From the human T2T-CHM13v2.0 reference genome, Homo sapiens: a DNA stretch of 64,000 nucleotides. The position numbers and the translations under genes were made by a program. Position 1 is the first letter of the stretch, and each line of letters opens with the position of its first letter. Shown piece by piece: positions 41,067 to 49,197 of this stretch. Location of the stretch: NCBI RefSeq assembly GCF_009914755.1, contig NC_060928.1. One strand, 5' to 3'. Below the pieces are notes generated by a model. It had not been told where the DNA came from, did not search any database, and was given only the letters and a program-made list of their open reading frames with translations.

Positions 41067-41549
41067 TTACAGTAGATTTAAATTTTTTAAAAAAAATTTC
41101 TGAGAGCCAAGATGGCCGAATAGGAACAGCTCTGGTCTACAGCTCCCAGCGTGAGCGACACAGAAGACAGGTGATTTCTGCATTTCCATCTGAGGTACCG
41201 GGTTCATCTCACTAGGGAGTGCCACACAGTGGGTGCAGGACAGTGGGTACAGTGCACCATGCGCGAGCTGAAGCAGGGCGAGGCATTGCCTCACTCGGGA
41301 AGCGCAAGGGGTCAGGGAGTTCCTTTTCCTAGTCAAAGAAAGGGGTGACAGACGGCACCTGGAAAATCGGGTCACTCCCACCCTAGTACTGTGCTTTTCC
41401 AACAGGCTTAAAAAACGGCACACCAGGAGATTATATCCCGCACATGGCTTGGAGGGTCCTGTGCCCACGGAGTCTTGCTGATTGCTAGCACAGCAGTCTG
41501 AGATCAAACTGCAAGGTGGCAGCGATGCTGGGGGAGGGGCGCCTGCCAT
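41067..41549 (-). other. L1 antisense ORF0, extended to 160 codons and running out of the element
   Basis: Begins MAGAPPPASLPPCSLISDCCASNQ, the known ORF0 N-terminus. Confidence 0.8.
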
Positions 41550-42142
41550 TGCCCAGGCTTGATTAGGTAAACAAAGCAGCTGGGAAGCTCAAACTGGGTG
41601 GAGCCCACCACAGCTCAAGGAGGCCTGCCTGCCTCTGTAGGCTCCACCTCTGGGGGCGGGGCACAGACAAACAAAAAGACAGCAGTAACCTCTGCAGACT
41701 TAAATGTCCCTGTCTGACAGCTTTGAAGAGAGTAGTGGTTCTCCCAGCATGCAGCTGGAGATCTGAGAACGGGCAGACTGCCTCCTCAAGCGGGTCCTTG
41801 ACCCCCGAGCAGCCTAACTGGGAGGCACCCCCCAGTAGGGGCAGAATGACACCTCACACGGCCAGGTACTCCTCTGAGACAAAACTTCTAGAGGAACGAT
41901 CAGGCAGCAGCATTTGCGGTTCACCAAGATCTGCTGTTCTACAGCCACCGCTGTTCTGCAGCCACTGCTGCTGATACCCAGGCAAACAGGGTCTGGAGTG
42001 GACCTCTAGCAAACTCCAACAGACCTGCAGCTGACGGTCCTGTCTGTTAGAAGGAAAACTAACAAACAGAAAGGACATCCACACCAAAAACCCTTCTGTA
42101 CGTCACCATCATCAGAGACCAAAAGTAGATAAAACCACAAAG

Positions 42143-43570
42143 ATGGGGAAAAAACAGAGCAGAAAAACTGGAAACTGTAAAAAGCAGAGTGCCTCTCCTC
42201 CTCCAAAGGAATGCAGCTCCTCACCAGCAATGGAACAAAGCTGGATGGGGAATGACTTTGACGAGCTGAGAGAAGAAGGCTTCAGACAATCAAACTACTC
42301 CGAGCTACAGGAGGAAATTCAAACAAATGGCAAAGAAGTTAAAAACTTTGAAAAAAAATTAGATGATTGGATAACTAGAATAACCAACACAGAGAAGTCC
42401 TTAAAGGAGCTAATGGAGCTGAAAGCCAAGGCTCGAGAATTACTTGAAGAATGCAGAAGCCCCAGGAGCCAATGTGATCAACTGGAAGAAAGGGTATCAG
42501 TAATGGAAGACGAAATGAATGAAATGAAGCGAGAAGGGAAGTTTAGAGAAAAAAGAATAAAAAGAAATGAACAAATCCTCCAAGAAATATGGGACTATGT
42601 GAAAAGGCCAAATCTACATCTGATTGGTGTACCTGAAAGTGACGGGGAGAATGGAACCAAGTTGGAAAACACTCTGCAGGATATTATGCAGGAGAACTTC
42701 CCCAATCTAGCAAGGCAGGCCAACATTCAGATTCAGGAAATACAGAGAACGCCACAAAGATACTCCTTGAGAAGAGCAACTCCAAGACACATAATTGTCA
42801 GATTCACCAAAGTTGAAATGAAGGAAAAAATGTTAAGGGCAGCCAGAGAGAAAGGTCAGGTTACCCACAAAGGGAAGCCCATCAGACTAACAGCAGATCT
42901 CTTCGCAGAAACTCTACAAGCCAGAAGAGAGTGGGGGCCAATATTCAACATTCTTAAAGAAAAGATGGGGAAAAAACAGAGCAGAAAAACTGGAAACTGT
43001 AAAAAGCAGAGCGCCTCTCCTCCTCCAAAGGAATGCAGCTCCTCACCAGCAATGGAACAAAGCTGGATGTGGAATGACTTTGACGAGCTGAGAGAAGAAG
43101 GCTTCAGACAATCAAACTACTCTGAGCTACAGGAGGAAATTCAAACAAATGGCAAAGAAGTTAAAAACTTTGAAAAAAAATTAGATGATTGGATAACTAG
43201 AATAACCAACGCAGAGAAGTCCTTAAAGGAGCTAATGGAGCTGAAAGCCAAGGCTCGAGAATTACGTGAAGAATGCAGAAGCCCCAGGAGCCAATGTGAT
43301 CAACTGGAAGAAAGGGTATCAGTAATGGAAGACGAAATGAATGAAATGAAGCGCGAAGGGAAGTTTAGAGAAAAAAGAATAAAACCCAGAATTTCATATC
43401 CAGCCGAACTAAGCTTCATAAGTGAAGGAGAAATAAAATACTTTACAGACAACCAAATGCTGAGAGATTTTGTCACCACCAGGTCTGCCCTAAAAGAGCT
43501 CCTGAAGGAAGCACTAAACATGGAAAGGAACAACCGGTACCAGCCACTGCAAAAATATGCCAAAATGTAA
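42143..43570 (+). CDS. L1 ORF1p, open, 475 aa owing to an in-frame duplicate of residues 1-140
   Basis: ORF track and direct comparison of 42143-42562 with 42965-43384. Expression unknown. Confidence 0.8.
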   Translation: MGKKQSRKTGNCKKQSASPPPKECSSSPAMEQSWMGNDFDELREEGFRQSNYSELQEEIQTNGKEVKNFEKKLDDWITRITNTEKSLKELMELKAKARELLEECRSPRSQCDQLEERVSVMEDEMNEMKREGKFREKRIKRNEQILQEIWDYVKRPNLHLIGVPESDGENGTKLENTLQDIMQENFPNLARQANIQIQEIQRTPQRYSLRRATPRHIIVRFTKVEMKEKMLRAAREKGQVTHKGKPIRLTADLFAETLQARREWGPIFNILKEKMGKKQSRKTGNCKKQSASPPPKECSSSPAMEQSWMWNDFDELREEGFRQSNYSELQEEIQTNGKEVKNFEKKLDDWITRITNAEKSLKELMELKAKARELREECRSPRSQCDQLEERVSVMEDEMNEMKREGKFREKRIKPRISYPAELSFISEGEIKYFTDNQMLRDFVTTRSALKELLKEALNMERNNRYQPLQKYAKM

Positions 43571-43634
43571 AGACCATCAAGACAAGGAAGAAAACTGCAT
43601 CAACTAACGAGCAAAATAACCAGCTAACATCATA

Positions 43635-47461
<3,827 letters not shown>

Positions 47462-49197
47462 ACAATGAAAACACATGGACACAGGAAGGGGAACATCACA
47501 CTCCGGGTCCTGTTGTGGGGTGGGGGGATGGGGGAGGGATAGCATTAGGAGATATACCTAATGCTAAATGACGAGTTAATGGATGCAGCACACCAACATG
47601 GCACATGTATACATATGTAACAAACCTGCACATTGTGCACATGTACCCTAAAACTTAAAGTATAATAATAATGAAATAAAATTAAATTAAAAAAAGAAAG
47701 TTCGATTATAAAAAAAATTTTCATTTTTTAAAATTTTCTTATTTCCTATAATGAATTACTACTGGTTCAATTAAAATGATCAAAGGAAATTTTAAAAATA
47801 TTTTTTAAACCCTGACATGATATGAACCTACATGTAGCTTTTTCTATGTCCAATATTGTATTTTATTAAAAGGGAAAGATTTTCATGTTAATGGTAACTT
47901 TCAAGGCTTCTTCCTTAGACCCCTGTCATTGGCATTTTTTTTCATAGTCAAAAAGCAAATCTAAGGATGACAAATATGAAAAAGAAACCCTTCTCTATCC
48001 AACCGTTCATTTTTCCTCATTGCTCCCTATCTCATTTCAGGTGTTCCGGCTCCTGAGAGGATGCTGAATGTGCAAGACCACAAGTGCAAGGAACGCCATG
48101 CTCAATCACTCTGCAAATGACATTACAACCGGAATAAATGCAAAGGCAGCAGGTCTCTTTAGGACATACACCTACACACAGTGCCAAACTCATCCTGTGG
48201 CCAACAGATGTACAGAGAATCCCAGAGTGCTTTATTAAGGATGGGTGACTGTTCATAGTTGGCATAGTTGGTTTCCTAAACCTGGGAAGCTCAGCAAACC
48301 AGTTTTACAAAAACATCAATAGATGATGATGGTGGTGATGATCTTGATAACAGTGTTAATGATTATATCAGAAACTAGTACTTCTGAGGGTTTACAAGGT
48401 GGCAGGCACTGAGGCAACATCTTCCTATACCTTCTCTCATGTGATTCTTCCAAGCATCCCATCAGGTAAGTCTCATTATTGCCCCAGTTTTACAGATAGA
48501 CAAACCAAGGTGTGGTGAAGCTGGGTAATATGCCTGAGGTTACGGGGCTGGAAAACAACAGAACTAGGATTCTGTTCCGTCTGACTCCACAGCCTGTGTT
48601 CTTAACCACTGTGTAAGCCATTTAAAGAAAATAGGAGTACCACTTAAGTAAAAGTGAATCCTAATTCTGTGATTGGTAGGGACTTAATTAAATAATGAAT
48701 CTTAATCGTTACTCAATCTTAAGTAAAAATGAATTTGAATTATGTGATTCGTAAGGTTCAGGTTAAGCTGTGTTTAAAAAAACTCTCCAAAAGTACAGAG
48801 GGTTAAATAAGGTGGAAATGTCTGCTTCTCTTGGGACAACAGTCTCAAGGCCAGTGGTGGTCAGAAATGGATGGAAGGCTCTACTCTGTGACCATTCAGC
48901 CTTCATCAGTTCTCAACCTACAACTTCTGTTATCTGGGCCCAAGTCAGCTGTCCTGGTTGTCACCATTCTCATGTGGTAAGAAGGGGAAATACAGGAGAT
49001 ACAGGGTAAGTACCTTGTGCTTAGGTTGGGGATGAACTAGAGGGTGCATTCATCCCCTCATCTCACCTCCCTCTTGCCTGCACTTACTCCCATAGCCACA
49101 CCTGGCCACACGGAGGCTGGGAAATGAAGTCTCTAGCTGGGCTGCCATGTGCCCAGAAAACTCATGGATGGTTCAATTATTGAAAGGAAAAAGGGGA

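What the first reader, a model, noticed from the sequence alone, without database searches (positions are those of the whole stretch)
42143..43570. LINE-1 ORF1 with a second N-terminal/coiled-coil module inserted in frame (475-aa ORF1p)
Seen: ORF1 has no stops over 475 codons. A 420-bp copy of codons 1-140 (42143-42562) sits at 42965-43384 and replaces the 9 nt encoding NFQ in the C-terminal domain (338-3+140=475). The copy starts exactly at the ATG and keeps frame, while ORF2 of the same element has many disabling lesions. The 5'UTR promoter with its YY1 site is present. Established: ORF1p is a trimer of N-terminal region, coiled coil, RRM and CTD. Inference: if expressed, a protein with two trimerisation coils and a split CTD could co-assemble with normal ORF1p, cross-link trimers, alter condensates or act as a dominant-negative. 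ORF1 often outlasts ORF2 simply because it is shorter, so openness alone is not proof of selection.
Basis: partly seen in the sequence, partly recalled or inferred. Interest (0 to 1): 0.8.

Follow-up and report, generated by a model that had tools for sequence, protein, structure and literature searches.

The report
Dead LINE-1 with internally duplicated ORF1
An old, inactive LINE-1 copy in an intron of FAM184B carries a 420-base in-frame repeat of the start of its own first gene, most likely made by a DNA copying slip long after it inserted, and nothing found here suggests the long reading frame is used.

Summary
ORF 42143-43570 is open for 475 codons. Codons 1-140 recur at 42965-43384, where 22 of 29 related L1 copies have 9 nt encoding NFQ. 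Both junctions carry microhomology (AAAG, AA), so "starts exactly at the ATG" is not determinable. Each junction occurs once in the assembly.

The two copies differ at 6 of 424 nt. The next-best genome copy is 95% identical. The copies share 5-7 substitutions that 0-2 of 29 relatives carry, and 8 of 14 CpG decays. The template was therefore this element itself, and the event probably came late in its residence. The differences also rule out an assembly artefact.

Nothing points to function:
- Private substitutions in ORF1 are 12 nonsynonymous to 3 synonymous, giving dN/dS of about 1.
- Both coils carry L107P at a core layer.
- The CTD is split.
- 8 of 29 relatives also keep an open ORF1, and every one of those checked has a broken ORF2.

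Verdict: this is a one-off microhomology-mediated templated duplication in a neutrally decaying L1PA3/4-grade fossil. The ORF is most likely open by chance. Interest is low.

The parts
41088..41100 (+). Left target-site duplication (T, eight A, TTT, C)
   Evidence: Read directly. It matches 47709-47722 apart from one extra T.
41101..47708 (+). Full-length L1PA-type LINE-1 insertion, about 6.6 kb (about 6.2 kb without the net 411-nt gain), antisense to FAM184B
   Evidence: Flanked by the target-site duplication and ending in an A-rich tail. It is 95-96% identical to 29 other genome copies over 865 nt. Pfam finds ORF1, endonuclease and RT domains.
41101..42142 (+). 5'UTR, long form; motif CAAGATGGCCG at 41108-41118
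   Evidence: The motif-to-ATG distance is 1034 nt. In 12 of the 13 relatives where it could be measured it is 1015-1038 nt, and in one it is 891.
42143..43570 (+). Open 475-codon ORF1 (stop included)
42139..42562 (+). Repeat copy 1: AAAG plus codons 1-140 (N-terminal region and coiled-coil heptads up to residue 140)
42961..43384 (+). Repeat copy 2 (the inserted module). 42961-42964 (AAAG) and 43383-43384 (AA) are junction microhomologies.
   Evidence: It differs from copy 1 at 6 of 424 nt. The next-best genome copy is 95% identical over the 201-nt core.
42605..42898 (+). RRM (Pfam Transposase_22, residues 155-252)
   Evidence: E = 4e-60; PDB 2w7a/2yko alignments.
43367..43510 (+). Distal part of the split CTD (Pfam Tnp_22_dsRBD profile positions 18-65, residues 409-456). 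The proximal part ends at residue 274 (42964).
43635..47461 (+). ORF2 remnant: 2 premature stops and 8 frameshifting indels
   Evidence: Endonuclease and RT Pfam matches on fragments.
47709..47722 (+). Right target-site duplication

Best explanation
This is a fossil L1PA3/L1PA4-grade LINE-1. It inserted by ordinary target-primed reverse transcription and has decayed neutrally since.

Long after insertion, roughly in the last fifth to third of its residence, a DNA-level copying error occurred. The growing strand left the template at codon 274 and re-annealed 822 nt upstream through the 4-nt AAAG just before the ATG. It copied 420 nt, then returned through a 2-nt AA match, skipping 9 nt. This is one event with two microhomology-mediated template switches, of the FoSTeS/MMBIR or templated break-repair type. 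A tandem 822-nt duplication followed by a 411-nt deletion would give the same result but is less likely.

The net gain of 411 nt kept the frame by a 1-in-3 chance. The 475-codon ORF is open because ORF1 is short, not because it is used.

Shown: the anatomy, the microhomologies, the in-cis template, uniqueness in the genome and neutral substitution. Inferred: the timing and the mechanism.
For: - Template is the element itself. The copies differ at 6 of 424 nt. The best other genome copy is 95% identical over the 201-nt core, with 40 of 2162 candidates scored. None of 406 pairs among the 29 relatives differs by fewer than 12 in this stretch; the median is 22.
- Shared history before the duplication. 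5 substitutions seen in 0 of 29 relatives, or 7 seen in at most 2 of 29, are present in both copies. Only 3 such changes are copy-specific.
- CpG decay. Of 14 CpG-type sites, 8 show the same decay in both copies, 3 are intact in both and 3 differ. No site has decayed in opposite directions.
- The shared L107P hits a coiled-coil core layer needed for retrotransposition. It is therefore unlikely to have been carried by an active source RNA.
- Microhomology is present at both junctions.
- Each junction has 1 hit in the 3.1-Gb assembly at up to 2 mismatches.
- Neutrality. Private ORF1 substitutions are 12 N to 3 S against 806:199 sites.
- 8 of 29 relatives have an open 338-aa ORF1.
- ORF2 lesion load is 10, within the range of 2-12 seen in 8 relatives.
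Against: - The shared 'private' changes could have been inherited from an unsampled, already diverged source rather than arising in place. Only 40 of 4671 and 40 of 2162 candidate copies were scored.
- Several shared TG sites (42212, 42231, 42246) are TG in 12-15 of 29 relatives, so they may be subfamily variants rather than decay in place.
- Gene conversion between the two copies would also lower their divergence.
- With the element's own ORF2 lesion rate (10 per 3.83 kb), an untouched ORF1 has P = 0.07 for 1017 nt and 0.024 for 1428 nt. This is mildly unexpected for one element.
- The 6 copy differences split 3 synonymous to 3 nonsynonymous. That is more synonymous than the 1:4 neutral expectation, though not significant.
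- The 29 relatives are the best-scoring matches. They are biased towards well-kept copies, so 8 of 29 overstates the family's rate of open ORF1.
Confidence: 0.75

Rival explanations
1. The duplication was made during retrotransposition. The L1 reverse transcriptase, copying its RNA from 3' to 5', jumped from codon 278 to codon 140 of the same RNA, ran to just upstream of the ATG, jumped back to codon 274 and finished the 5'UTR. The element would then have been born with the 475-codon ORF1.
For: - Both copies come from one template and sit inside one set of target-site duplications.
- Template switching by ORF2p is an accepted route to chimeric insertions (bioRxiv 10.1101/2025.02.02.635956, passages). 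'Internal duplication' is listed among uncharacterised L1 insertion structures (PMC2912911, Table 1 note).
- Short microhomologies fit this route as well.
Against: - Two independently decaying copies of family-typical age should differ by about 12 or more in 424 nt, the minimum among 406 relative pairs. Six are seen; P(<=6 | 12) = 0.046.
- There are 8 concordant CpG decays and no discordant-direction decay.
- The shared private changes include L107P in a core layer and give dN/dS of about 1. That would be odd for an RNA from a competent source.
Confidence: 0.17
2. The 475-aa protein is made and matters. It would be an ORF1p variant with two coiled-coil modules that co-assembles with active ORF1p and damps retrotransposition, or it would be on the way to domestication like L1TD1.
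For: - The frame is open over 1428 nt although ORF2 has 10 lesions.
- The 5'UTR is full length.
- Truncated or older ORF1 proteins with an N-terminus and coiled coil suppress L1 in trans (PMC5605252, abstract and section 24).
- L1TD1 is built from two ORF1-like regions (PMC4161310, passages).
Against: - dN/dS is about 1 on the element's own branch.
- L107P is present in both coils.
- The CTD is split.
- The second coil lacks residues 141-152. The N-terminal heptads need the C-terminal ones to trimerise (PMC5940361, section heading and passage).
- Open ORF1 is common in the family.
- The hub's RefSeq table shows no gene model here.
- The element lies antisense to its host gene, so expression would need its own promoter. 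That promoter is the long 5'UTR form, which is reported to be the target of ZNF93 repression (PMC7110667 passages; length).
Confidence: 0.04
3. The duplication is an assembly artefact of this genome build.
For: Only one assembly could be examined, and the structure is unique in it.
Against: A collapsed or expanded read artefact would give identical copies. These differ at 6 sites, 3 of them CpG transitions in alternating directions. The junctions also show a clean 9-nt loss with microhomology.
Confidence: 0.02

Closest known systems
Human LINE-1 ORF1p (L1PA lineage; solved as 2YKO/2YKP, 2W7A, 2LDY, 6FIA)
   Same: Residues 1-274 and 415-475 are collinear with human ORF1p (2yko: 106-274 and 409-468, E = 7.6e-121; 6fia: 52-152). 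All three Pfam ORF1 domains are found. The protein is 90-92% identical to 8 intact relatives.
   Different: A second copy of residues 1-140 replaces NFQ (275-277) inside the CTD. Both coils carry L107P. The second coil stops at residue 140. No protein among the best 120 of 1421 database hits covers more than 58% of it.
L1TD1, the domesticated ORF1-derived gene
   Same: It is a host-genome ORF built from repeated ORF1 material. A dominant-negative action through the coiled coil has been proposed for it (PMC4161310 passages). The L1TD1 CTD structure 2lr6 matches residues 409-459.
   Different: L1TD1 is ancient, spliced, conserved in placental mammals and under selection. Here there is a single intronic fossil with neutral substitutions, no gene model, and a partial duplication (N-terminal region plus coil only) that interrupts a domain.
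Trans-suppressing defective ORF1 loci (Sokolowski et al. 2017, PMC5605252)
   Same: It is a defective genomic L1 locus that still encodes an N-terminus plus coiled coil, the part reported as sufficient to suppress L1 in trans (abstract and section 24).
   Different: Those proteins are truncated by stop codons and come mainly from L1PA2/3. This one is elongated, older in coil type and carries a core proline. Its expression is unknown.
Microhomology-mediated template-switch rearrangements (FoSTeS/MMBIR-type templated insertions; name recalled, no paper read)
   Same: A nearby upstream segment is copied in direct orientation into a site. The junction microhomologies are 4 and 2 nt, and a few bases are lost at the target.
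   Different: This is usually described for larger genomic segments or for disease alleles. Here it sits inside one retrotransposon and happens to keep a reading frame.

Membership tests
LINE-1 (L1PA) retrotransposon insertion | Target-site duplication and A-rich 3' tail | tested here: met
   A 13-14-nt repeat lies at 41088-41100 and 47709-47722, and an A-rich tail precedes 47709.
LINE-1 (L1PA) retrotransposon insertion | ORF1 with trimerisation, RRM and CTD domains | tested here: met
   PF17489, PF02994 and PF17490 all score above their cut-offs.
LINE-1 (L1PA) retrotransposon insertion | ORF2 with endonuclease and reverse transcriptase | tested here: met
   PF03372 and PF00078 match ORF2 fragments. 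ORF2 is broken by 10 lesions.
LINE-1 (L1PA) retrotransposon insertion | Full-length 5'UTR with the 5'-terminal YY1-type motif | tested here: met
   CAAGATGGCCG lies at 41108-41118, 1034 nt before the ATG, as in 12 of 13 measurable relatives. The motif name is recalled.
Retrotransposition-competent ORF1p | Uninterrupted CTD | tested here: not met
   The CTD profile is split: positions 18-65 lie at residues 409-456, and the rest ends at residue 274.
Retrotransposition-competent ORF1p | Hydrophobic core layers of the coiled coil (L107, layer VIId) | tested here: not met
   CTC has become CCC at 42462 and at 43284. This is seen in 0 of 29 relatives. The L107N/L114N double mutant is inactive (PMC5940361).
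Retrotransposition-competent ORF1p | Evidence that the variant was copied to new sites | tested here: not met
   Each junction has 1 hit in the assembly at up to 2 mismatches.
Domesticated ORF1-derived host gene (L1TD1-like) | Purifying selection on the frame | tested here: not met
   12 N to 3 S private substitutions against 806:199 sites. Only the element's own branch was tested; orthologues were not available.
Domesticated ORF1-derived host gene (L1TD1-like) | Open frame conserved in orthologues; transcript and protein detected | not testable with these tools
   No ape or other human assemblies and no expression data were at hand.
Microhomology-mediated template-switch duplication | Microhomology at both junctions and a template nearby in cis | tested here: met
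   AAAG and AA at the junctions. The template lies 822 nt upstream in the same element.
Microhomology-mediated template-switch duplication | Arose in genomic DNA after insertion, not during reverse transcription | tested here: inconclusive
   Post-insertion origin is favoured by 6 differences against at least 12 in relative pairs, by 8 shared CpG decays and by 5-7 shared private changes. Inheritance from an unsampled source or gene conversion is not excluded.

The most novel reading that the evidence does not exclude
When old L1PA promoters are derepressed (early embryo, germ line, tumours), this locus might produce an ORF1p of 475 residues (about 1.4 times the usual 338) with two N-terminal/coiled-coil modules. 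That protein could enter ORF1p trimers or condensates of active L1s and poison or cross-link them. It would be a naturally occurring, locus-specific trans-inhibitor that arose near the human-chimpanzee split.
Probability: 0.03. Interest if true: 0.5.

Novelty: new variant of a known kind. Interest (0 to 1): 0.15.

Why it matters
If the ordinary reading holds, this is a tidy, datable example of a microhomology-mediated templated duplication inside a retrotransposon fossil. It also shows that a long open ORF1 next to a dead ORF2 is the family norm, not a sign of selection. That is useful as a calibration case for scans that flag unusually long ORFs in repeats.

It would matter more only if the protein were made. 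Defective ORF1 proteins can suppress L1 in trans (PMC5605252), and a double-coil form has not turned up in the library searches made here:
- 2 papers
- 2 papers
- 1 paper

None of these, judged from their search listings (titles and abstract starts) plus passages of PMC2912911, concerns this structure.

Tried and rejected
- Structure prediction of the 475-aa protein with a 9-row alignment gave mean pLDDT 42.8 and pTM 0.19. Even the known RRM was not modelled, so nothing can be concluded about whether the split CTD folds. No fold search was run on it.
- The paper with the standard L1PA ages (Khan et al. 2006) is not held, so ages in Myr rest on recall and on the '30-10 MYA for L1Pa7-L1Pa3' in the abstract of PMC7449397.
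- I tried to name the subfamily from the supplement of PMC7449397. Two coil peptides were not found. A second look showed only that the stored file is cut and that the N-terminus of its L1PA5 'mod' sequence differs from the window's. I therefore say 'L1PA3/4-grade' from three observations: the 338-aa collinear ORF1, the long 5'UTR and about 5% pairwise distance.
- The protein database search found many 474-493-aa ORF1 entries. The four I read are N-terminal read-throughs of the 5'UTR, not duplications. The window's own protein is not in that list, so the search says nothing about ape orthologues.
- Twin priming is rejected because the repeat is direct, not inverted. A second L1 copy as donor is rejected because of the shared private changes and the gap between 99% and 95% identity.

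Full report
**What is there**

The + strand from about 41101 to 47708 is one full-length LINE-1.
- It is flanked by a 13-14-nt target-site duplication (41088-41100 and 47709-47722) and ends in an A-rich tail.
- It begins with the 5'-terminal motif CAAGATGGCCG at 41108-41118. Calling this the YY1 site rests on recall.
- It lies in a FAM184B intron, antisense to the gene (hub annotation).
- Its ORF1, 42143-43570, is open for 475 codons.
- Pfam finds the ORF1 RRM at residues 155-252. It finds two stretches of the trimerisation domain. It finds the CTD (dsRBD-like) domain in two stretches, the larger being profile positions 18-65 at residues 409-456.
- Solved human ORF1p chains align as two blocks, 106-274 and 409-468, with the same residue numbering as the human protein.

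**The repeat**

42139-42562 recurs at 42961-43384, 822 nt downstream, with 6 mismatches in 424 nt. In 22 of 29 related copies the two flanks of the second copy are separated by exactly AATTTTCAA (NFQ). Three relatives have a 9-nt variant, and in 4 the anchors did not match. The window lacks these 9 nt.

One point needs correcting. The repeat includes AAAG upstream of the ATG, which is also the end of codon 274. Its last AA is also the end of the lost 9-mer. The breakpoints are thus ambiguous by 4 and 2 nt, and these are junction microhomologies. The copy cannot be said to start 'exactly at the ATG'.

**Where the second copy came from**

A search of the assembly with the 201-nt core returned the two local copies at 100% and 99%. 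The next best was 95%, and most others were 93% (40 of 2162 candidates scored).

I aligned the element with 29 relatives. These were the 29 matches besides the window's own that the search stored as loci, out of 40 scored from 4671 candidates.
- Both copies share 5 substitutions seen in none of the 29, or 7 seen in at most 2 of the 29.
- Only 3 such rare changes are specific to one copy.
- The copies differ by 6. No pair among the 406 pairs of relatives differs by fewer than 12 in the same stretch, and the median is 22.

The template was this element, or its own RNA, and not another L1. The 6 differences also exclude an assembly artefact. Three of them are CpG transitions running in both directions.

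**When it happened**

Of 14 CpG-type sites in the repeat, 3 are intact in both copies, 8 carry the same decay in both, 3 differ, and none has decayed in opposite directions. The CpG retention of the element outside the repeat is 28 of 62. That lies within the range of the relatives, 0.32-0.72, so its age is typical of the family.

If all shared rare changes arose in place, the duplication took place when about 80% of the residence time had passed. That estimate comes from 3 copy-specific against 6 shared changes. The binomial interval for the share of time after the event is wide, about 0.04-0.54; this is my arithmetic.

In absolute terms, 6/424 = 1.4% between the copies (Poisson 95% interval for the count 2.2-13.1). 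That is about the human-chimpanzee level of divergence. This calibration is recalled, not computed.

One shared change is L107P. L107 is core layer VIId of the coiled coil, and the L107N/L114N double mutant does not retrotranspose (PMC5940361, passage). An RNA from a competent source is unlikely to have carried it, so this too favours accumulation in place before the duplication.

Caveats:
- Some shared TG sites are common among relatives and may be subfamily variants.
- An unsampled, diverged source cannot be ruled out.
- Gene conversion between the copies cannot be ruled out.

**Mechanism**

The simplest account is one DNA-level event with two microhomology-guided template switches. The strand goes back 822 nt, copies 420 nt, then returns and skips 9 nt. 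A tandem 822-nt duplication followed by a 411-nt deletion gives the same sequence but needs two in-frame events.

Reverse-transcriptase template jumping at insertion is the main rival (for the published concept). It predicts about twice as many differences as are seen (P = 0.046), and it predicts independent CpG decay.

**Is the open frame meaningful?**

ORF2 carries 2 premature stops (codons 332 and 646) and 8 frameshifting indels. Eight relatives carry 2-12 such lesions, and none has an open ORF2; their longest open stretches are 315-651 aa.

Among the 29 relatives:
- 8 have an open 338-aa ORF1
- 1 runs to 343 aa
- 17 stop early
- 3 lack the ATG at the expected place

All 5 of the open-ORF1 relatives whose ORF2 I fetched have it broken. 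These relatives are the best-scoring matches, so 8 of 29 is biased upward.

From the element's own ORF2 lesion rate, an untouched ORF1 has P = 0.07 for 1017 nt, or 0.024 for 1428 nt over the whole time. That is unremarkable given thousands of such elements.

The element's rare substitutions in the original ORF1 are 12 nonsynonymous and 3 synonymous against 806 and 199 sites, so dN/dS is about 1. The 6 copy differences are 3 synonymous and 3 nonsynonymous, too few to test.

**The protein, if made**

It would read in this order:
- the N-terminal region
- the coil, with proline at residue 107
- the RRM
- the first roughly 17 profile positions of the CTD
- a second N-terminal region
- a second coil, also with the proline, ending at residue 140 and so lacking residues 141-152
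- the rest of the CTD

The N-terminal heptads are reported to need the C-terminal ones for trimerisation (PMC5940361). A structure prediction was uninformative, with pLDDT 42.8.

The 5'UTR is the long form: 1034 nt from motif to ATG, like 12 of 13 measurable relatives, with one relative at 891. That fits the versions that still hold the 129-bp ZNF93 target lost in later L1PA3 (PMC7110667, passages). That the extra length is this segment is inferred, not aligned.

**Comparison and novelty**

The element is a member of the L1PA lineage. Its ORF1p fails the tests for a competent ORF1p and for a selected host gene (see the membership table).

L1TD1 shows that doubled ORF1 material can be domesticated (PMC4161310). 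Defective ORF1 proteins can suppress L1 in trans (PMC5605252).

No database protein among the best 120 of 1421 hits covers more than 58% of the query. The 474-493-aa entries I read are 5'UTR read-throughs. Library searches found no description of such an ORF1.

**Verdict**

The structure is real and datable but ordinary in meaning. It is a one-off rearrangement in a neutrally decaying repeat.

Noticed in passing
window 41067-41549, minus strand: A 160-aa ATG-ORF lies antisense in the L1 5'UTR and runs out of the element's 5' end into flanking DNA. Its start lies about where the primate antisense ORF0 is described (recalled). I did not compare it with anything.
   Followed up: no
proteins P0058, P0019, P0042, P0109: The public protein collection holds many 'ORF1' entries of 474-493 aa. 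P0058 alone stands for 67 member sequences. The four I read are normal ORF1 with an N-terminal extension read through the 5'UTR in frame, apparently from gene calling. They could be mistaken for enlarged ORF1 proteins.
   Followed up: partly
loci L004-L032: The 95%-identical relatives are a mixture. Two coiled-coil types occur among the 8 intact ORF1 proteins. One of 13 measurable copies has a 5'UTR about 140 nt shorter (891 against 1015-1038), as expected for the later form with the deletion.
   Followed up: partly
window 42139-43384: The two 424-nt direct repeats, 822 nt apart, could recombine. Such a deletion would leave a 201-codon in-frame ORF (codons 1-140 joined to the last 61). Whether human haplotypes differ here is unknown.
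   Followed up: no
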